64,000 nucleotides of DNA, from contig NW_026889765.1 in NCBI RefSeq assembly GCF_033153115.1, forward strand, positions 11,222,001 through 11,286,000. Reading direction: 5' to 3'. Position numbers and translations under genes: made by a program. The notes under the pieces are model-generated. The model was not told the DNA's origin. It worked only from the letters and a program-made list of their open reading frames with translations, and made no database searches. This DNA comes from Saccostrea echinata (Eukaryota). Of the stretch, positions 22,506 through 61,265 are shown piece after piece. Every line of letters starts with the position of its first letter. The stretch's first letter is position 1.

Positions 22506-25500
22506 TGTGTAAAGATTAGCGAGGGAGAGTGTGTGTTTAAATCCAGGAATTTATAACCAATACACTGTTTACTCCTTTTTATGATACAGAAAATATATCA
22601 GAATTATGGTTTTATCATATTTTTTTAATGATATATTTTTTTAGCTAGATAGTTTATTGTGGCAGCACGATGACAACAAATACAAAAATGTGTTTCCTCT
22701 TCATTAACAAAAGCCACCAGTTAAAAATAAGCTCCGTAAATGCAATAAATACTTGTTTTGAATATTTTAAATTTGTTTTTATTTATCAAATCACTTAAAA
22801 TACTTTTAAATTACATTATTTTGACCAAACAGAGAAAGACGAAGACATTCCATGTTGTCATTCTATTAATTACTCGTGTTCCAGATTAAAGGAATTTTCC
22901 CAATGTGACATCATGTTTATTCCCCAAACCACTTTAGCGATGATTTTCATGATGTTTATTTTATCTAGACTGCTTGTAAATAGGACACACACCCCTACAC
23001 ACACACAAATACACGTACACATATAGTTTTGACATAATATTTGATATAGATTGCTGGTATTTATAGGAATCCAACCCACCAGCCCAGCTGTGATTTTTGG
23101 AAGGATTTCTTGTGTTTTGTAACTCATCCTCTTTTCAGAATTTTGTTCATTTCGATGAGAATTGGGGGTGGGGTGGGGGTGGACATGCTATTTCCCTTTT
23201 ATGTGCAAAAACTAATCAACATAATTGATATGCACTAATTGATCAGTTTTTGTTTGTAGTTGGCGATGATTCAGACCAATACTGTTATAGAGAGCCTGTC
23301 TGCGGCGCACCCCGGGGTCTCCTTTCAAGTTGGTAAGGGTGTTTGTGGACTTTATCCTGGAGAAGCAAAAATTGAGCAAAACATAAAAAAGCATTTTTTT
23401 TTCAAAAATACCGAAAATAATGATTAATTCATTGATTTAAGTCTGCATATATCAGTTTCTCTTATTAAAAAAAAAATTTTTAAAATCATGATAATTTCTC
23501 AAGCGAACGAAAAATGAAGGGGCTTGTTCAGATGTTTATTACAAGAATATTTACTAATGTTGAAATCAAAACAGAGACCATTCTCTCGTAATAAAATTAA
23601 GGTCACTTTCCCATGCATAGAAGACATGCTTAGAAAGGAATATTAAAGTAAGATGACTGATTTGAGAAAAACAAATCAAAAACATTAAAGAAAAGGGAAA
23701 AGAACAATCCAAAAGACATGGGTTTTTGTAATCTGAAAAACCTGAGAGAATTGGGCCAAAAGCTGGTCATAACTCTTTACGATTGTCTATAAATTTCATT
23801 GATCAAAAATTGAGAGAAAGCAATGAATCAGCAAGTTTTCTGAATTAATTCATTTCTGTAGATTTTCAATAAAATTTTTAATTGGATTTGTCTTTTGATT
23901 TTAAACCAAGTTTGCCTATTAACATTTTTATAAATGTTGAGGTGCGCCTGTAATAGCACATAAATTTACATGCAGATTTTGCAGTGAAAGCTGTTCTTTT
24001 TCCTTTGTGAAGTATGCAGTATGGTTAATATTCTTCAAAATTCATTTTGTATTGGATACATTGTACAAACTTAAACCAGAAAGAGTGGGGTAAAACTTTC
24101 AGGGTCCAGTAGACCAAGAGTGTTATTGAGAATGAAATGCACTAACTTTTTTTCAATGTCACTTCATTGATAAGAATAATTATTAACATTCCTTTACTCG
24201 CCTTTCAAACTAAGAAGGCTAACTATGTAATATAGGAATAAAAAATTATTGAACATCATTAAGGACCAAAAAAGTATCCTAATATTGGTTATATTTTAAT
24301 ATATAGGTAACACAATTTTATCCTTGAAAATGTAAAAAAAAAAAAAAAAAAAGGTTTATATAGTTGAGTTAAAAATAGAATTGCAGCACGTGAGAGTGAT
24401 CTAAAATAAACTGTATAGGAATTTATTCGCATTTCATTTTGAACCTATCTCTTTAACATTTGTAAAAATCATACATTGGTTAGAATATTTTAGTAGACAC
24501 ATTAACTTTTCACATGCACAACAATTTTTTATCAGTAAATGAAAACTTTGCAGTGATTTAGATTCATTAATTTCTTTACACTCCCAATGAAAATAATAAT
24601 AATAAAATTAAAATAGAAATAAAGAAAACAAAACAAAGGGAAAAAAATAGCCTTACTAAGGTAAGTGTTTTTGGTTCAGACTTACAATAAATGCTCTTAA
24701 AAACGCTTAAACTGATTTTATTTTGTAATGAGCTAGTTGGCGTCCCTTGTGACAATGTGAGAGCTGTAGAAAGAAAGAAAATCGACAACGTATCTTGTTC
24801 TCTCTCTCTCTTTAAAATTATTTAGCCCAAGATTTATGATAATATATGTAAATCATGTCATAAAACATGTACTTATACTGAATAAACATACATGCACTTA
24901 GCGTTGATATCAAAATTTACATGTAGTTGATAACATTTATTTCAGTTTCTATGGAAACTATCGGAGACAAGATCCAGGATGTTGCTTTACCTAAGGTAAC
25001 TTTGACTAAACACGTCATTAAAATCGCTACGTTATATACTAGTATTACAAATATTCAACATTCAGATGCTCATTAACCAAATGATTGTAAATGATTTTAT
25101 CGTCAGATTGGCATCTCTGGGGTGTTCACCAAGGAGCTAGACGCAGCCCTTCTCTTAAATCACGTGGATATCGTCGTCCACTCCATGAAGGACTGCCCGG
25201 CTCTGCTTCCTGATAACCTGGTTATAGGATCCATAATCAAGTAAACAAAAAGTCTTCTACATAGATTTAAATGTACCAATTTCTGAATGTGCATAAGGAG
25301 GCAGTTCTATTGTAAAATATTCATTGAAATTTTTCAATACCATTTCTACTTTGATGAAGTTACTGGCATATTAAGATTTTTTTCAGGAGAGACAGTCCTT
25401 ATGACGTTGTGGTGATGAGCCTTAAAAACAAGGGGAAAACTCTAGCCGAACTCCCAGAGGGCAGGTAAAGTAACATGACATAAACTCTAGCCGAACTCCC

Positions 25501-28500
25501 AGAGGGCAAGTAAAGTAACATGACATAAACTCTAGCAGAACTCCCAGAGGGCAGGTAAAGTAACATGACATAAACTCTAGTAGAACTCCCAGAGGGCAGG
25601 TAAAGTAACATGACATAAACTCTAGCCGAACTCCCAGAGAGCAGGTAAAGTAACAGACACAAACTATAGAAGAACTTCCAGAGGGCAGGTAAAGTAACAT
25701 GACAAGCTCTAGCCGAACTCCCAGAGGGCAGGTAAAGTAACATGACAAACTCTAGCCAAACTCCCGGAGGGCAAGTAAAGTAACATGACAAACTCTAGCC
25801 GAACTCCCAGAGGGCAGGTAAAGTAACATGACATAAACTCTAGTAGAACTTCCAGAGGGCAGGTAAAGTAACATGACAAACTCTAGCCGAACTCCCAGAG
25901 GGCAGGTAAAGTAATATGACATAACTCTAGTAGAACTCCCAGAGGGCAGGTAAAGTAACATGACATAACTCTAGTAGAACTCCCAGAGGGCAGGTAAAGT
26001 AACATGACAAACTCTAGTCGAACTCCCAGAGGGCAGGTAAAGTAACAGACACAAACTATAGAAGAACTCCCAGAGGGCAGGTAAACTAACATGACAAACT
26101 CTAGCCGAACTCCCAGAGGGCAGGTAAAGTAACATGACAAACTCTAGCCGAACTCCCGAAGGGCAAGTAAAGTAACATGACAAACTCTAGCCGAACTCCC
26201 AGAGGGCAGGTAAAGTAACATGACATAAACTCTAGTAGAACTTCCAAAGGGTAGGTAAAGTAACATGACATAAACTCTAGTAGAACTTCCAAAGGGCAGG
26301 TAAAGTAACATGACATAAACTCTAGTAGAACTTCCAAAGGGCAGGTAAAGTAACATGACATAAACTCTAGTAGAACTCCCAGAGGGCAGGTTAAAAAAAA
26401 CATGTCATAAACTCTGGCCGAACTCTCAGAGGGCAGGTAAAAAAAACGTCATAAACTCTAGCCGAACTCCCAGAGGGCAGGTAAAAAACATGTCATAAAC
26501 TCTAGCCGAACTCTCAGAGGGCAGGTAAAATTTTGATAAATGACTATTACGTGAAAAGCTTTACAAGAATTATTCCATTCTTTCTCTTTTCCAGTGTGGT
26601 GGGGACGAGCTCTCTGCGACGTGTTGCACAAGTCTCACGAATACATCCTCATCTAAAGTTTGAGAGCATTGTAAGTGCCAGATATATTGTATGTCTTCTC
26701 TTCTCCAAGGGGCGGGTTTAAAAAATACTAGTAATTGATTTAAAGAAAAATAATTAATAATGATGCTTAAACATGTTTTAATATAGTTTAAACAGGCACA
26801 GTCCTTTAATTTTAAAGTTATATATTGGGGGGGGGGGGATATGTGGTTTAGTTTGAATATGGTCAAACACATTTCTTTGTATTGTATACCTAAATCTTTG
26901 CACGGAACCCCTAACCATGTTATTTTTAAAATTCAAAAGTATACCGTAATTCTAGTTTTATATAATTAAAACTACTTGTTTAAATGTGTATTTATTTGCT
27001 ATTCTTTGTTAATAAGAGAGGGAGTTTGAACTCTCGCCTTGAGAAGCTTGATGAAGGAGATAAATATGCTGCACTGATCCTAGCTGAGGCCGGACTCTCC
27101 AGAATGGGGTGGGAGAACAGACTGTCTGAGGTAAAAGATTGCCCTACTGGAGTAACAAATATTAATGTTGTATGTTAATCTGTGAAATATGTTGTTACTT
27201 TTCAAATAATTTATCTTCGGCAGTTGCATCTTGTGTCGGATTAAAAAAAGTAACAAGATTTTTTTCCTGAGACAGCTCTCCCATTTAACAATATGACTTA
27301 AAAGCAATTTTCTAGAATATTCATGTTTGTAAATAATCACGCTCACTTTGATAATTACAAATACTAATCAGGCCCGTAGAACGCCCCTTTTTCTGTTGTA
27401 TAGTATTTTGCTATATTGAATTTTCATTCAGATGCTGTTTACCTCCACCCCCACCCCATCCCCAACACACACTTTTTGTTGCTGTAAGGTCGAGCACATT
27501 ATCTAACAAAATTCCAGAATTTTGGCAGTTACGGATTATGTTAGGAAGTCGTCCCCCACCCCATTTTTTGGACAATTTATATTTTTTTTTTAGCTTGTCA
27601 GATTTTGGGAGGTTGAAACCCTCCCAACCCCCACCCCCACGTTTCAAACCGTTGCTATGGGCCTGCTAATAGAAACTTATCATAAGTTACATGTATATAT
27701 ATATATATTAATCTGTAGAGACTGGCAGATAGTGGATGCTTGTATGCAGTAAGCCAAGGAGCCATTGGGGTAGAATGCCGAGCAGACGACAAAGTAACGT
27801 TGTCTTTGCTGGACTCCATCGCTGATAGAGAGACAACACTGCAGTGTGTCGCAGAAAGGTCCTTTATTAGGAACTTGGTACATGTCTTTCTGATTGCTTA
27901 AAGTTGACTTTCTGACATTATTTATTTCGTATTTGTTCGAGATAAAATTAATTCTGATCAGAAATGTTTATTTGTTTTAGGGCGTAGGCTACAAGGCACC
28001 CGTGTGCGTTCACTGTGAAATCACACGTGATGAGGTATGGTTTGGTGATAGCACCATTTTTTTTTTCATTTAATGGAAGTACATAAGAATGAAAATTCTA
28101 GGATTATACATAACTCATTTTGACGATAAAAAAATCATTCTGAGAAAACACAAAATGGACTTTTCAGCATAATCTACGAACAACCTAAATATTGTAAACC
28201 AGCATTTCTTTATAAAGGACGAATCGGAATTTCGAAGTTTTTTATTAATAAAAAATACAAATTATATTGAATATCTCAATCATGCTTGCAATACAACAAA
28301 TCCTTCTGGACTAGACATTGTTTTATGTCTTTGAGCTATATATTCAACAGAAATGATAAGAAGCCAATATTATTATTTACAATCGGTAGGTACACACTTA
28401 TTTACAATTAGTAGGTACACTTTTATTTACAATCGGTAGATACATTTACGTGGTGCGGTTTACAGTCTGGACGGACATGAAACACAGGTACTGGACACAA

Positions 28501-29593
28501 GAGCTCTTCTCCACCCGGACGGACAGAGAACTGCGGTATGTCTTTATATAAACTATTCAACATTGTCAGAAACTACAAATAAATTATATTTCAGGTCATT
28601 GAAAACATTTCAGCAGACTTTTTAAAATTATATCTGACTTTACAAAGATTTTTGTTGTTGAAAATATGTTTCAATCCCCTAAATCCTGTAAATAGTGATC
28701 AATGTTATAAATCCTGTAAACAGTGATCATTCTCCTATTCCTGTATACAGTGATCGATCTCTCCTAAATCCTTTAAACAGTGATCAATCTCCTAAATCCT
28801 GTAAACAGTGATTAAGCTCCTAAATCCTGTAAACAGTGGTCGATCTCTCCTAAACCCTGTAAACTGTGATCAATCTTATAAATCCTGTAAACAAGATACG
28901 AATCTCGGAACAGGGAAAAGTTGTTGCTTGTTTCTATGGTAAAGATTTCTGAAATTTAATAAGAAATATTGACCTTTACAACAATTTTTTAAATAATTAT
29001 AAACATGAGACAATAATTTGATGTGTTATATTTCTTATATAACTTTTTAAGTAATTTAAATAATAAAATTGCCATCATTTTTGACAATTTCTTTATTTTC
29101 GAATAGCTTTAATCGTTTTTTTTTTTTTTTATTTTTTAGAGGTGATAATGGGGGGGGGGGGGGAGTGTTATACAAGATTACTATATAATGTTTCACAAAC
29201 GTGAACTTTTCATTGTTCGGTATAGAGTGGTTTAGTGTTTTTGCTTTTTATCAAATTTATTGAAAATTAGTACATGTACATACAATTTTTTGAGCATTTT
29301 TTTTAATTTAATTCAGTAGCTGATATATCACTAAAAAAAATTCATTAGATTTTTTAATACTTTCATTTTCTTTAAAGAAAGGGGAGCAGATGCCCGCTAA
29401 CAGTTCCTCCTTCATGTCGATAGCAGTGGGCAATACCGCCACGAGAGAGGAGATGTCTGTAGCTCAGCGTATAGGACTCAAACTGGCTGAAGAATTTCTA
29501 AAATCTAATGCCAAAGATGTATTGATGACCGCCAAAGTTTCCACCGAAAATTCTATACTGCAGGAGCGATCCCGGCGTGAGCTTGTGGCCTAG
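22203..29593 (+). CDS. HMBS: Porphobilinogen deaminase / hydroxymethylbilane synthase homologue, 363 aa, lacking the cofactor-binding Cys
   Basis: 11 phase-compatible exons: 22203-22244 ([14 protein letters not shown]), 23260-23332 (LAMIQTNTV), 24946-24995 ([14 protein letters not shown]), 25107-25240 ([20 protein letters not shown]), 25387-25464, 26595-26670 (VVGTSSLRR), 27017-27130 ([25 protein letters not shown]), 27719-27877 ([18 protein letters not shown]), 27981-28034 (GVGYKAPV), 28440-28535 (GAVYSLDG), 29378-29593. Total 1092 nt with no stop or frameshift. An upstream UTR exon is possible because an AG directly precedes the ATG. Confidence 0.93.
25437..26530 (+). repeat. Minisatellite of 25 x 43-46 bp built from the HMBS exon-5 3' end plus its splice donor
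   Basis: Unit AAACTCTAGCCGAACTCCCAGAGGGCAG|GTAAAGTAACATGAC(AT); the first copy encodes KTLAELPEG(S) of exon 5. Confidence 0.95.
27369..27665. mobile_element. Non-autonomous DNA transposon with 5-bp TSD (hAT5-like), HMBS intron 7
   Basis: CTAAT|CAGGCCCGTAG ... CTATGGGCCTG|CTAAT. Confidence 0.75.
28371..28446 (+). repeat. Triplicated splice-acceptor region of HMBS exon 10
   Basis: Three ~25-bp copies of ttatttacaat(cg/ta)gtag|(g/a)taca; the last AG (28438-28439) gives the in-frame exon. Confidence 0.8.
28678..28893. repeat. ~28-bp minisatellite, about 8 copies, HMBS intron 10
   Basis: Unit taaatcctgtaaacagtgatcaatctcc. Confidence 0.85.
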
Positions 29594-49387: not shown

Positions 49388-50773
49388 AACAACATAACCC
49401 AGTCACTGTTTAACATAACCCAGTCACTGAGGAACATAACCCAGTCACTGAGGAACATAACCCAGTCACTGTCAACATAACCCAGTCACTGTTCAACATA
49501 ACCCAGTCATTGTTTAACATAACCCAGTCACTGAGGAACATAACCCAGTCACTGTTCAACATAACCCAGTCACTGTTTAACATAACCCAGTCACTGTTCA
49601 ACATAAGCCAGTCACTGAACAACATAACCCAGTCACTGAGGAACATAACCCAGTCACTGTTTAGCATAACCCAGTCACTACACAACATAAGCCAGTCACT
49701 GTTTAACACAACCCAATCACTTTACATCATAACCCAGTCACTGAACAACATAACCCAGTCACTGTTCAACATAACCCAGTCACTGTTTATCATAACCCAG
49801 TCACTGAGGAACATGACCCAGTCACTGTTCAACATAACCCAATCACTGTTTAATATAACCCAGTCTCTGTTCAACATAACCCAGTCACCTTTCAACATAA
49901 CCCAGTCACTGTTCAACATAACCCAGTCACTGAACAACATAACCCAGTCACTGAACATCATAACCATGTCACTGAGGAACATACCCAGTCACAGAGAAAC
50001 ATAACTAAGTCACCGAACAACATAACCCAGTCACTGAGGAACATAACCCAGTCACTGTTCAACATAACCAAGTCACTGAACAACATAAGCCAGTCACTGT
50101 TTAACACAACCCAATCACTTTACAACATAACCCAGTCACTGAACAACATAACCCAGTCACTGTTCAACATAACCCAATCACTGTTTAATATAACCCAGTC
50201 ACTGTTCAACATAACCTAGTCACCTTTCAACATAACCCAGTCACTGTTCAACATAACCCAGTCACTGAGGAACATAACCCAGTCACTGTTCAACATAACC
50301 CAGTCACTGAACAACATAACCCAGTCACTGAGGAACATAACCCAGTCACTGTTCAACATAACCCAGTCACTGAGGAACATAACCCAGTCACTGTCAACAT
50401 AACCCAGTCACTGAACAACATAACCCAGACACTGTTTAACATAACCCAGTCACTGTTCAACATAAGCCAGTCACTGAACAACATAAGCCAGTCACTGTTT
50501 AACATAACCCAGTCACTGTTTAACATAACGCAGTCACTACACAACATAAGCCAGTCACTGTTTAACACAACCCAATCACTTTACAACATAACCCAGTCAC
50601 TGAACATCATAATCATGTCACTGAGGAACATACCCAGTCACAGAGAAACATAACTAAGTCACTGAACAACATAACCAAGTCACTGAGGAACATAACCCAG
50701 TCACTGTATAACATAACCCAGTCACTGAACAACATAACCCAGTCATTGTTCAACATAACCCAGTCACTGAACA
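49388..50773 (+). repeat. 21-bp tandem array, ~65 copies (left foldback arm, in intron 3 of the element gene)
   Basis: Unit AACATAACCCAGTCACTG + TTC/TTT/AAC/AGG. Confidence 0.97.
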
Positions 50774-57242: not shown

Positions 57243-60200
57243 CTTGGGTTATGTTTCTCAGTGACTGGGTTATGTTGTTCAGTGACTGGGTTATGCTGTT
57301 GAGAGACTGGGTTATGCTGAACAGTGACTGGGTTATGTTCCTCAGTGACTGGGTTATGTTGAACAGTGACTGGGTTATGTTAAACTGTGATTTGGTTATG
57401 TTGTTCTGTGACTGGGTTATGTTGTTCTGTGACTGGGTTATGCTGTTCTGTGACTGGGTTATGTTGAAGAGTGACCGGGTAATGTTAAACAGTGACTGGG
57501 TTATGTTGTTCAGTGACTGCGTTATGTTCCTCAGTGACTGGGTTATGTTAAACGGTGACTGGGTTATGTTAAACAGTGACTGGGTTATGTTGAACTGTGA
57601 CTGGGTTAGGTTTCCCAATGATGGGTTTTGTTGTACAGTAACTGGGTTATGTTTCTTAGTGACTGGGTTATGTTCCTCTGTGACTGGGTTATGTTGCGCA
57701 GAGACTGGATTATGTTGCTTGGAGACTGAATTATGTTGTTCAGTGACTGGGTTATATATCTCTGTGACTAGGTTTTGTTGTTGAGTGACTGGATTATGTT
57801 TCTCTGTGACTGGGTAATGTTGTTCAAAAACTACGTTATGTTTCTCAGTGACTGGGTTATGTTAAACAGTGACTGGGTTATGTTAAACAGTGACTGGGTT
57901 ATGTTGTTCAGTGAGTGGGTTATGATGTACAGTGACTGGGTATGTTAAGTAGTGACTGGGTTATGTTAAACAGTGACTGGGTTATGTTGTATAGTGACTG
58001 GGTTATGTTCCTCAGTGACTGGGTTATGATAGACAGTGAGTGGGTTATGTTAAACAGTGACTGGGTTATGTTGTTCAGTGACTGGGTTATGTTGAACAGT
58101 GACTGGGTTATGTTGTGTAGTGACTGGGTTATGTTCCTCAGTGACTGGGTTATGATAAACAGTGACTGGGTTATGTTAAACAGTGACTGGGTTATGTTGT
58201 TCAGTGACTGGGTTATGTTAAACAGTGACATGGTTATGTTGTTCAGGGACTGGGTTATGATGTACAGTGACTGGGTATGTGAAGTAGTGACTGGGTTATG
58301 TTGAACAGTGACTGGGTTATGTTGTTTAGTGACTGGGTTATGTTCCTCAGTGACTGGGTTATGTTCCTCAGTGACTGGGTTATGTTGTTCAGTGACTGGG
58401 TTATGTTGTTCAGTGACTGGATTATGTTCCTCAGTGACTGGGTTATGTTGTTCAGTGACTTGGTTATGTTGAACAGTGACTCTGTTATGTTAAACAGTGA
58501 CTGGGTAATGTTGTTCAGTGACTGCATTATGTTCCTCAGTGACTGGGTTATTCTAAACGGTGACTGGGGTATGTTAAACAGTGACTGGGTTATGTTCCTC
58601 AGTGACTGGGTTATGTTCCTCAGTGACTGGGTTATGTTGTATAGTGACTGGGTTATGTTAAACAGTGACTGGGTTATGTTGTTCAGTGACTGGGTTATGT
58701 TCCTCAGTGACTGGTTTATGTTGAACAGTGACTGGGTTTTGTTGTTCATTCATTGGGTATGTTGAACTGTGACTGGGTTATGTTGAACTGTAACTGGGTT
58801 AGGTTTCCCAATGATGGGTTTTGTTGTACAGTAACTGGGTTATGTTTCTTAGTGACTGGGTTATGTTCCTCTGTGACTGGGTTTTGTTGCGCAGAGACTG
58901 GTTTATGTTGCTTGGAGACTAAATTATGTTGTTCAGTGACTGGGTTATATATCTCTGTGTCTAGGTTTTGTTGTTGAGTGACTGGATTATGTTTCTCTGT
59001 GACTGGGTAATGTTGTTCAAAAACTACGTTATGTTTCTCAGTGACTGGGTTATGTTAAACAGTGACTGGGTTATGTTAAACTGTGACTGGTTTATGTTGT
59101 TCAGTGACTGGGTTATGTTCCTCAGTGACTGGGTTATATTAAACAGTGACTGGGTTTTGTTGTTTAGTGAATGGGTTATGTTAAGCAGTGACTGGGTTAT
59201 GTTAAACAGTGACTGGGTTATGTTGTTCAGTGACTGGGTTATGTTAAACAGTGACATGGTTATGTTGTTCAGGGACTGGGTTATGATGTACAGTGACTGG
59301 GTATGTGAAGTAGTGACTGGGTTATGTTGAACAGTGACTGGGTTATGTTGTTTAGTGACTGGGTTATGTTCCTCAGTGACTGGGTTATGTTCCTCAGTGA
59401 CTGGGTTATGTTGTTCAGTGACTGGGTTATGTTGTTCAGTGACTGGATTATGTTCCTCAGTGACTGGGTTATGTTGTTCAGTGACTTGGTTATGTTGAAC
59501 AGTGACTCTGTTATGTTAAACAGTGACTGGGTAATGTTGTTCAGTGACTGCATTATGTTCCTCAGTGACTGGGTTATTCTAAACGGTGACTGGGGTATGT
59601 TAAACAGTGACTGGGTTATGTTCCTCAGTGACTGGGTTATGTTCCTCAGTGACTGGGTTATGTTGTATAGTGACTGGGTTATGTTAAACAGTGACTGGGT
59701 TATGTTGTTCAGTGACTGGGTTATGTTCCTCAGTGACTGGTTTATGTTGAACAGTGACTGGGTTTTGTTGTTCATTCATTGGGTATGTTGAACTGTGACT
59801 GGGTTATGTTGAACTGTAACTGGGTTAGGTTTCCCAATGATGGGTTTTGTTGTACAGTAACTGGGTTATGTTTCTTAGTGACTGGGTTATGTTCCTCTGT
59901 GACTGGGTTTTGTTGCGCAGAGACTGGTTTATGTTGCTTGGAGACTAAATTATGTTGTTCAGTGACTGGGTTATATATCTCTGTGTCTAGGTTTTGTTGT
60001 TGAGTGACTGGATTATGTTTCTCTGTGACTGGGTAATGTTGTTCAAAAACTACGTTATGTTTCTCAGTGACTGGGTTATGTTAAACAGTGACTGGGTTAT
60101 GTTAAACTGTGACTGGTTTATGTTGTTCAGTGACTGGGTTATGTTCCTCAGTGACTGGGTTATATTAAACAGTGACTGGGTTTTGTTGTTTAGTGAATGG

Positions 60201-61265
60201 GTTATGTTAAGCAGTGACTGGGTTATGTTAAACAGTGACTGGGTTATGTTGTTCAGTGACTGGGTTATGTTGTATAGTGACTGGGTCATGTTCCTCAGTG
60301 ACTGGGTTATGTTAAACAGTGACTGGGTATGTTGTTCAGTGACTGGGTTATGTTGTTCAGTGACTGGGTTATGTTGAACAGTGACTGGGTTATGTTGTTC
60401 AGTGACTGGGTTATGTTGAACAGTGACTGGGTTATGTTATACAGTGACTGGGTTATGTTAAACAATGACTGGGTTATGTTAAACAGTGACTGGGTTATGT
60501 TCCTCAGTGACTGGGTTATGTTCCTCAGTGACTGGGTTATGTTGTTCAGTGACTGGGTATGTTGAACAGTGACTCTGTTATGTTAAACAGTGACTGGGTT
60601 ATGTTGTTCAGTGACTGCATTATGTTCCTCAGTGACTGGGTTATGTTGAACAGTGACTGGGTTATGTTGTTTAGTGACTGGGTTATGTTCCTCAGTGACT
60701 GGGTTATGTTCCTCAGTGACTTAGTTATGTTCCTCAGTGACTGGGTTATGTTGAACAGTGACTGGGTTATGTTAAACAGTGACTGGGTTATGTTGTTCAG
60801 TGACTGGGTTATGTTCCTCAGTGACAGGGTTATGTTGTATAGTGACTGGGTTATGTTCCTCAGTGACTGGGTTATGTTGAACAGTGACTGGGTTATGTTA
60901 AACAGTGACTGGGTTATGTTTCTCTCTGGGTTATGTTGTTGAGAGACAGGGTTATGTTGCTCGGTGACTGGGTAATGATTTTCAGTGACTGGTTTATGTT
61001 ATTCAGGGACTGGGATTTGGTTCTCAGTAACTGGGTTATATTTTTCAGTGACTGGGTTATGCTATTGAGAGACTGGGTTATGTTGAACTGTGACTGGGTT
61101 AGGTTTCCCAGTGTATGTGTGTTCATTATCTCACAGTTGAACAGTGAATTGGTTATGTTATTGATTGAGTATAATATGTTGAACAGTGACTAGGTTAGGT
61201 TTTCCAGTGACTGAGTCAAGTTTCACAGTGACTAGGTTATGTTGTTCAAAGACTAGATTATGTTG
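57243..61265 (-). repeat. 21-bp tandem array, ~190 copies (right foldback arm), with a 1026-bp higher-order duplication
   Basis: Unit CAGTGACTGGGTTATGTT+NNN, the reverse complement of the left array; identical pseudo-ORFs recur at an offset of 1026. Confidence 0.97.

What the first reader, a model, noticed from the sequence alone, without database searches (positions are those of the whole stretch)
25437..26530. An exon-intron junction amplified 25 times: a splice-donor array filling HMBS intron 5
Seen: the unit is the last 28 nt of exon 5 plus the first 15-17 nt of the intron, and most copies keep CAG|GTAAA. Reading through the first donor meets AGG TAA at once, so use of any downstream donor as an extended exon 5 gives a premature stop. 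Inference: about two dozen competing donors could divert transcripts to nonsense-mediated decay, making array length a tunable and probably polymorphic expression control. Alternatively, it shows strict first-donor choice by exon definition.
Basis: partly seen in the sequence, partly recalled or inferred. Interest (0 to 1): 0.7.

Follow-up and report, generated by a model that had tools for sequence, protein, structure and literature searches.

The report
Splice-donor minisatellite in oyster pigment gene
In a rock oyster, the end of one exon and its splice signal stand 25 times in a row into the next intron, but the assembled transcripts use only the first signal, so this is likely a harmless repeat of a kind known from human and amphioxus genes; the host gene is an unusual copy of a haem-pathway enzyme that lacks the usual cofactor-binding cysteine, and its counterparts in other oysters are linked to shell colour.

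Summary
Real but ordinary. 25437-26529 holds 25 head-to-tail copies of a 43-47 bp unit: the last 28 nt of exon 5 plus 15-19 nt of intron 5. All keep GT, 20 keep CAG|GTAAA, and read-through meets TAA at once. Spliced contigs from 5 runs (4 samples, 3 studies) show only the first donor; rare use of others is not excluded. The class is known: human F7, CBS and 6-16 junction minisatellites, amphioxus 'mirages'. It is common in this genome: 5 of 192 kinase exons (4 genes, about 3 expected by chance) and the other HMBS copy carry one, and this scan noted two more on other DNA (pyruvate carboxylase, parkin). The NMD-rheostat idea is unsupported. The better lead is the host gene. It is not the housekeeping HMBS but an oyster/pearl-oyster duplicate with Tyr at the cofactor-anchoring Cys261. 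It is the copy whose knock-down whitens Pacific oyster shell (published primers match only it), and the pearl-oyster PBGDs linked to red shell carry the same Tyr.

The parts
25437..26529 (+). Junction-spanning minisatellite, 25 copies of 43-47 bp; copy 1 is the real end of exon 5 and start of intron 5
25387..25464 (+). Exon 5 (78 nt) of the HMBS-like gene; its last 28 nt are the exon part of the unit
25465..25470 (+). Authentic donor (phase 2), the only donor seen in spliced contigs; in-frame TAA at 25466-25468 on read-through
25510..26530 (+). 24 pseudo-donors (GT at 25510 ... 26525); none stronger than the first; copies 22-25 are the most diverged
25465..26254 (+). Likely nine-unit block duplication inside the array (units 1-9 against 10-18, about 395 bp)
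   Evidence: lag-9 distances 3,3,1,4,1,2,2,0,2; means at other lags 4.0-6.4
26525..26594 (+). Last pseudo-donor to acceptor: 70 nt, the likely size of the intron before the expansion (the paralogue's matching intron is 107 nt)
   Evidence: the ancestral size is inference
26595..26670 (+). Exon 6 (76 nt)
22203..29593 (+). Host gene: 11 coding exons (22203-22244, 23260-23332, 24946-24995, 25107-25240, 25387-25464, 26595-26670, 27017-27130, 27719-27877, 27981-28034, 28440-28535, 29378-29593), 363 aa, identical to RefSeq XP_061179854.1 (P0122); divergent HMBS/PBGD paralogue
27990..27992 (+). Tyr246 codon, at the place of the cofactor-anchoring cysteine (human Cys261)
28373..28447 (+). Second junction repeat in the same gene: three 25-bp copies across the intron 9 acceptor; contigs use the exon-proximal AG

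Best explanation
This is a minisatellite whose first unit spans the exon 5/intron 5 junction, likely made by replication slippage and unequal exchange and likely tolerated because splicing takes the first donor, so it would have little or no effect on the gene. Steps: (1) shown: the unit is the exon end plus the intron start; (2) inferred: a tandem duplication across the donor, then turnover, including a nine-unit block duplication, with the 3' edge copies left out of homogenisation; (3) shown for the dominant mRNA: the first donor is joined to exon 6; (4) inferred from the human F7 experiments: of identical donors in a row the most upstream wins, and using any other would give an exon of 123 to 1138 nt with an immediate stop, so any leak would be cleared by NMD; (5) inferred: the array survives because it costs nothing, like similar arrays elsewhere in this genome.
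For: Only the 25464/26595 joint appears in 5 of 5 runs laid across it (X1, X2, X3, X4, X8; 4 samples, 3 studies). The RefSeq model uses the same donor (0 differences in 363 aa). No copy has a stronger donor. GT is invariant, but so are 18 of 37 columns, so there is no sign of selection on the pseudo-donors. The first six copies fold worse than all 200 shuffles (z +2.06), so masking by structure is not needed. Census: 5 of 192 kinase-domain exon hits in 60 loci (4 distinct genes) have a TRF array that starts in the exon and crosses the donor, against about 3 expected under uniform placement. The canonical HMBS has its own, older 66-bp donor repeat at a different exon. Published cases behave the same way (PMC1557585, PMC3087553).
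Against: All RNA evidence is Logan contigs, which drop rare forms. Array-only contigs are present in 4 of 4 runs laid at high resolution, and their source (pre-mRNA, retained intron, extended exon, DNA) cannot be told. In human 6-16 and CBS the two nearest pseudo-donors are used (PMC1557585, introduction), so a leak at copies 2-3 is plausible. The F7 scanning rule is mammalian and untested in oysters. The census null is rough, and some of the 60 loci are allelic duplicates.
Confidence: 0.75

Rival explanations
1. Leaky but unselected: a few per cent of transcripts use the second or third donor (or the last, which would leave a 70-nt intron), hit the stop and are degraded. Expression is shaved a little, without tuning by length.
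For: Copy 3 has the same donor as copy 1 and would give a 168-nt exon; copy 2 (CAA|GTAAAG) a 123-nt exon. Human 6-16 and CBS use the two nearest pseudo-sites (PMC1557585). Array-derived contigs exist in the RNA-like runs. The last donor lies 70 nt from the acceptor.
Against: No such joint in any contig. F7, LMNB2, PDGF and the amphioxus cases use only the authentic site (PMC1557585, PMC3087553).
Confidence: 0.18
2. Length-tuned rheostat: more copies divert more mRNA to NMD and so set the level of a shell-pigment gene.
For: Every extended form carries a stop far upstream of the last junction. The host is the orthologue of the PBGD tied to shell colour in Pacific oyster and shares the Tyr with those of pearl oyster. 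The array looks unstable (block duplication; X3 holds a single 73-nt array contig, the size of one 43-bp cycle).
Against: No alternative joint was seen. Beyond copy 5 the exon would exceed 300 nt, so extra copies should add little under exon definition (inference). The donors show no special conservation. Such arrays occur at chance level, also in a CDK1-like gene.
Confidence: 0.05
3. Assembly artefact.
For: Copy number could not be checked with long reads; no run held half of the sampled words.
Against: There are 20 distinct unit types in 24 units, with ordered higher-order structure. Multi-unit array contigs come from three other samples.
Confidence: 0.02

Closest known systems
Human F7 intron 7 37-bp VNTR (Borensztajn et al. 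2006, PMC1557585; parts 1 and 4 of 6 read)
   Same: First unit spans the exon-intron boundary; the donor is reiterated; only the most upstream one is used.
   Different: 5-9 copies with 4 exon nt, against 25 copies with 28 exon nt here; mammal against mollusc.
Human 6-16 (25 pseudo-sites), CBS intron 13 (15-20 copies), LMNB2 and PDGF junction minisatellites (as summarised in the introduction of PMC1557585; primary papers not seen)
   Same: Same layout and similar copy numbers.
   Different: 6-16 and CBS also use the two nearest pseudo-donors; no such use is seen here, though contigs could miss it.
Amphioxus 'mirage' repeats in Adh3, BflGb6, BflGb9 (PMC3087553; passages including section 16 read)
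   Same: Invertebrate; tandem copies of either boundary (the host gene has one at a donor and one at an acceptor); normal splicing kept; edge copies escape homogenisation.
   Different: Different phylum; length polymorphism is shown there and not yet for this locus.
Canonical HMBS/PBGD (human, PDB 7ccx and others), as the family of the host gene
   Same: About 47% identity to mammalian HMBS; R26, Q34, S96, K98, D99, R116, R149, R150, R167, R173, R195, Q217, R225 and D228 kept (residue list from PMC7998362).
   Different: Tyr replaces the cofactor-anchoring Cys261; further clade-specific changes at 12 otherwise conserved columns; a canonical Cys copy lies elsewhere in the genome.

Membership tests
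Junction-spanning minisatellite (F7/CBS/6-16 type; amphioxus mirage) | Head-to-tail array of a 10-160 bp unit | tested here: met
   43-47 bp x 25
Junction-spanning minisatellite (F7/CBS/6-16 type; amphioxus mirage) | First unit spans a real exon-intron boundary | tested here: met
   Junction 25464/26595 in spliced contigs
Junction-spanning minisatellite (F7/CBS/6-16 type; amphioxus mirage) | Copies reiterate the splice signal | tested here: met
   25 of 25 keep GT, 20 of 25 CAG|GTAAA
Junction-spanning minisatellite (F7/CBS/6-16 type; amphioxus mirage) | Main mRNA uses the most upstream donor | tested here: met
   5 of 5 runs; holds for the dominant form only
Junction-spanning minisatellite (F7/CBS/6-16 type; amphioxus mirage) | Length polymorphism between individuals | tested here: inconclusive
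   No genomic reads held. Array contigs differ between runs. A like array in a CDK1-like gene has 12.8 and 10.7 copies on two allelic-looking contigs, but that is another locus.
Unproductive-splicing/NMD expression control | Measurable use of the unproductive donor | tested here: inconclusive
   None seen, but contigs cannot show absence
Unproductive-splicing/NMD expression control | Premature stop well upstream of the last junction | tested here: met
   TAA at 25466-25468, in exon 5 of 11; generic for phase-2 GTAA donors
Unproductive-splicing/NMD expression control | Element conserved across species, or its length tracks expression | not testable with these tools
   No other oyster genomes or raw reads on hand
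Canonical HMBS/PBGD (host gene) | Catalytic Asp99/Lys98 and substrate-binding arginines | tested here: met
Canonical HMBS/PBGD (host gene) | Cysteine that anchors the dipyrromethane cofactor (Cys261; role per PMC13564367) | tested here: not met
   Tyr246; Tyr in 6 of 121 homologues, Cys in 115
Canonical HMBS/PBGD (host gene) | Makes hydroxymethylbilane from porphobilinogen | not testable with these tools
   Needs an enzyme assay

The most novel reading that the evidence does not exclude
A fast-mutating splice-donor array acts as a heritable dial on a shell-pigment gene: leak to downstream donors and NMD scale with copy number and set the level of a cysteine-less HMBS duplicate that feeds uroporphyrin into the shell by a non-canonical route (a Tyr-anchored or non-covalent cofactor, or a tetrapyrrole carrier). 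The host-gene half alone, a conserved Tyr-type PBGD that works differently from the canonical enzyme and serves pigmentation, is far more likely (about 0.5) and would deserve about 0.55 by itself.
Probability: 0.05. Interest if true: 0.7.

Novelty: new member of a known kind. Interest (0 to 1): 0.27.

Why it matters
The array alone (interest about 0.15) adds a mollusc case to a known class. With the census it suggests such arrays are commonplace in oyster genes, which matters for gene annotation and PCR design. It is a natural test of first-donor choice in an animal with short introns, since the last copy offers a 70-nt intron that is not seen used. The host gene matters more (about 0.5 as a lead). 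Shell-colour papers on Pacific and pearl oysters treat 'PBGD' as the ordinary haem enzyme, yet the copy targeted in Pacific oyster, and by shared residues those studied in pearl oyster, are a lineage-specific duplicate that has kept the other listed catalytic and binding residues but not the cysteine that anchors the cofactor. One enzyme assay would show whether HMBS chemistry can run without that cysteine, or whether this is a pseudo-enzyme recruited for pigment.

Tried and rejected
Using contig depth to measure leak: rejected. The tool states that contig depth cannot rank parts of a gene. By hand, X3's array contig (depth 57, mRNA 274) works out to about 1% or about 5% per copy depending on the unknown allele (31-mer multiplicity 4.5), so it decides nothing. 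No array contig lies over copies 23-25 in any of the 4 runs; a part without cover is no evidence. No listed holder is on record as RNA; X1 and X2 are labelled 'DNA?' but their contigs are spliced, so I read them as RNA (inference). Selection on the pseudo-donors: not found (18 of 37 columns invariant). Hairpin masking: not found. Protein-coding expansion: excluded, as every extended form carries the first TAA. A dispersed repeat family: the exon-plus-array query matched only this locus in G000 (a lower bound). The P450 search returned mostly long-exon genes and was not used for the census. Of the 141 kinase matches, I fetched 60 regions around small-exon matches and left out long open frames and obvious duplicates. 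Of 10 blastn candidates, four (L072 first hit, L085, L109, L119) were not junction arrays and were dropped; L111 is a single diverged upstream copy and was not counted; L077 was found by TRF only. A search for C261Y/C242S papers listed nothing on HMBS among the 25 of 107 shown. No supplements were opened; those of PMC7998362 could discuss the Tyr.

Full report
1. Observation. TRF finds one array at 25437-26529, period 45, 24.7 copies, 90% matches. It holds 25 donors, 25465 to 26525, 43-47 nt apart; each unit is the last 28 nt of exon 5 plus 15-19 intron nt. All 25 keep GT and 20 keep CAG|GTAAA. Sixteen, copy 1 included, have the identical 9-mer, and none has G at +5, so none is stronger than the first. 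There are 20 unit types in 24 units. Units 1-9 resemble units 10-18 (distances 3,3,1,4,1,2,2,0,2; means at other lags 4.0-6.4), and the last four copies are the most diverged. I read this as block duplication and turnover that spares the edge (inference). Read-through of the first donor gives Arg then stop; this follows from any phase-2 intron starting GTAA.

2. Host gene. Eleven coding exons at 22203-29593 give 363 aa, identical to RefSeq XP_061179854.1 of Saccostrea echinata. Contigs from four runs show GT-AG joints at all ten introns: nine in 4 of 4 runs, intron 1 in 3 of 4. For intron 5, the only joint in 5 of 5 runs (X1, X2, X3, X4, X8; 4 samples, 3 studies) is 25464/26595. Short array-only contigs occur in 4 of 4 runs laid on the narrow stretch, none joined to exon 6. 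They show that the array exists in other animals, but not what RNA they come from. Contigs drop rare forms, so low-level use of other donors stays open. The first six copies are less structured than all 200 shuffles.

3. Is this locus special? The genome's other HMBS (G000:C57) has an older, decayed 66-bp repeat across the donor of a different exon, the fourth (TRF 3.5 copies, about five by eye). The host gene also has three 25-bp copies across its intron 9 acceptor. For a background rate I fetched 60 ten-kilobase regions around small kinase exons and found 192 kinase-domain exon hits. TRF arrays start in the exon and cross the donor at 5 hits in 4 genes, and cross an acceptor at 1. Uniform placement of the 188 arrays in those 600 kb predicts about 3 donor cases, so there is no clear enrichment. 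One case lies in a gene with a PSTAIRE motif (CDK1-like; label recalled) and has 12.8 and 10.7 copies on two allelic-looking contigs. Earlier notes of this scan report like arrays in pyruvate carboxylase and parkin of the same genome (AI notes, not checked here).

4. Known class. PMC1557585 (parts 1 and 4 of 6 read) describes minisatellites whose first unit spans a donor in human F7, 6-16 (25 pseudo-sites), CBS, LMNB2 and PDGF. It shows with 50 constructs that F7 pseudo-donors are functional but the most upstream one wins unless a downstream one is a perfect consensus; 6-16 and CBS use two pseudo-sites as well. PMC3087553 (passages) describes amphioxus 'mirages' at either boundary that leave splicing intact and vary in length. 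My searches listed no oyster case; the library lacks most subscription journals.

5. Mechanism. Most likely (0.75): a slippage-born, near-neutral junction minisatellite with first-donor choice. The anatomy and the dominant junction are shown; the origin, scanning or exon definition, and neutrality are inferred. A small unselected leak cleared by NMD is the main rival (0.18); a length-tuned rheostat is unlikely (0.05). One point specific to this locus: the last pseudo-donor lies 70 nt from the acceptor (the paralogue's matching intron is 107 nt). Pairing across a short intron would favour it, yet the contigs show the first donor.

6. The better lead, outside the given coordinates. The host protein has Tyr246 where HMBS has the cysteine that anchors the dipyrromethane cofactor (role per PMC13564367, passages). 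The other catalytic and binding residues listed in PMC7998362 are kept; two hinge residues differ (H120Y, L238I). Among 121 homologues, 115 have Cys and 6 have Tyr: five oyster proteins and one of Pinctada imbricata, which group with 100/99 support on long branches that the tree program flags as possibly misjoined (33 of the 121 in the tree). Saccostrea, Ostrea and Pinctada each also have a Cys copy. In PMC7998362 (passages and Table 1), PBGD_A, B and D, lowered in red pearl oysters, show Y at C261, and PBGD_A also shows H120Y and L238I as the host gene does; the authors call PBGD_A active. PMC9923487 (passages) maps red-shell SNPs to PBGD genes without saying which type. In PMC8201132 (passages and Table 2), knock-down of CgPBGD whitens new orange shell. 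So the Pacific oyster shell-colour PBGD is this paralogue. I found no paper that discusses the missing cysteine (supplements not opened). Whether the protein is active is untested, and nothing here links the array to pigment.

7. Verdict. Observation confirmed; rheostat not supported; new member of a known kind. Interest 0.27: about 0.15 for the array, raised by the host-gene lead.

Noticed in passing
window 27990-27992 (gene 22203-29593): Oyster/pearl-oyster HMBS duplicate with Tyr at the cofactor Cys261 and the other listed catalytic and binding residues kept. It is the PBGD knocked down in the Pacific oyster shell-colour RNAi study, and the red-shell PBGDs of pearl oyster carry the same Tyr. 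Candidate pseudo-enzyme or non-canonical enzyme; worth its own follow-up.
   Followed up: partly
P0001/P0002/P0004/P0005, residue 85: The oyster Tyr clade has a new invariant Cys right after the catalytic Asp (Leu in 114 of 116 others), and the conserved Glu-Lys of the active-site loop is replaced. The Pinctada Tyr protein lacks this Cys.
   Followed up: no
L006 1601-1905 (G000:C57): The canonical HMBS has an independent, decayed 66-bp repeat across the exon 4 donor, about five copies.
   Followed up: partly
window 28373-28447: Three 25-bp copies across the intron 9 acceptor; contigs use the exon-proximal AG.
   Followed up: yes
L101 and L097 (G000:C46 near 1.24 Mb, C19 near 5.08 Mb): CDK1-like gene with a 55-bp donor-spanning array, 12.8 against 10.7 copies on two allelic-looking contigs; the assembly seems to keep both haplotypes in places.
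   Followed up: partly
L072, L113, L077, L125, L111: Further junction duplications in kinase genes: donors 37 bp x 4.6, 55 bp x 3.5, 51 bp x 2.1; acceptor 64 bp x 2.1; one diverged upstream exon copy.
   Followed up: partly
window 49390-50769 and 57245-61105: Two long arrays of what looks like one 21-bp unit in opposite orientation (66 and 184 copies), giving strong local GC skew.
   Followed up: no
window 18319-19211 and 42788-44018: 146-bp and about 168-bp satellite-like repeats, the first beside short 4-base tracts; possibly Helentron- or MITE-linked (recalled, untested).
   Followed up: no
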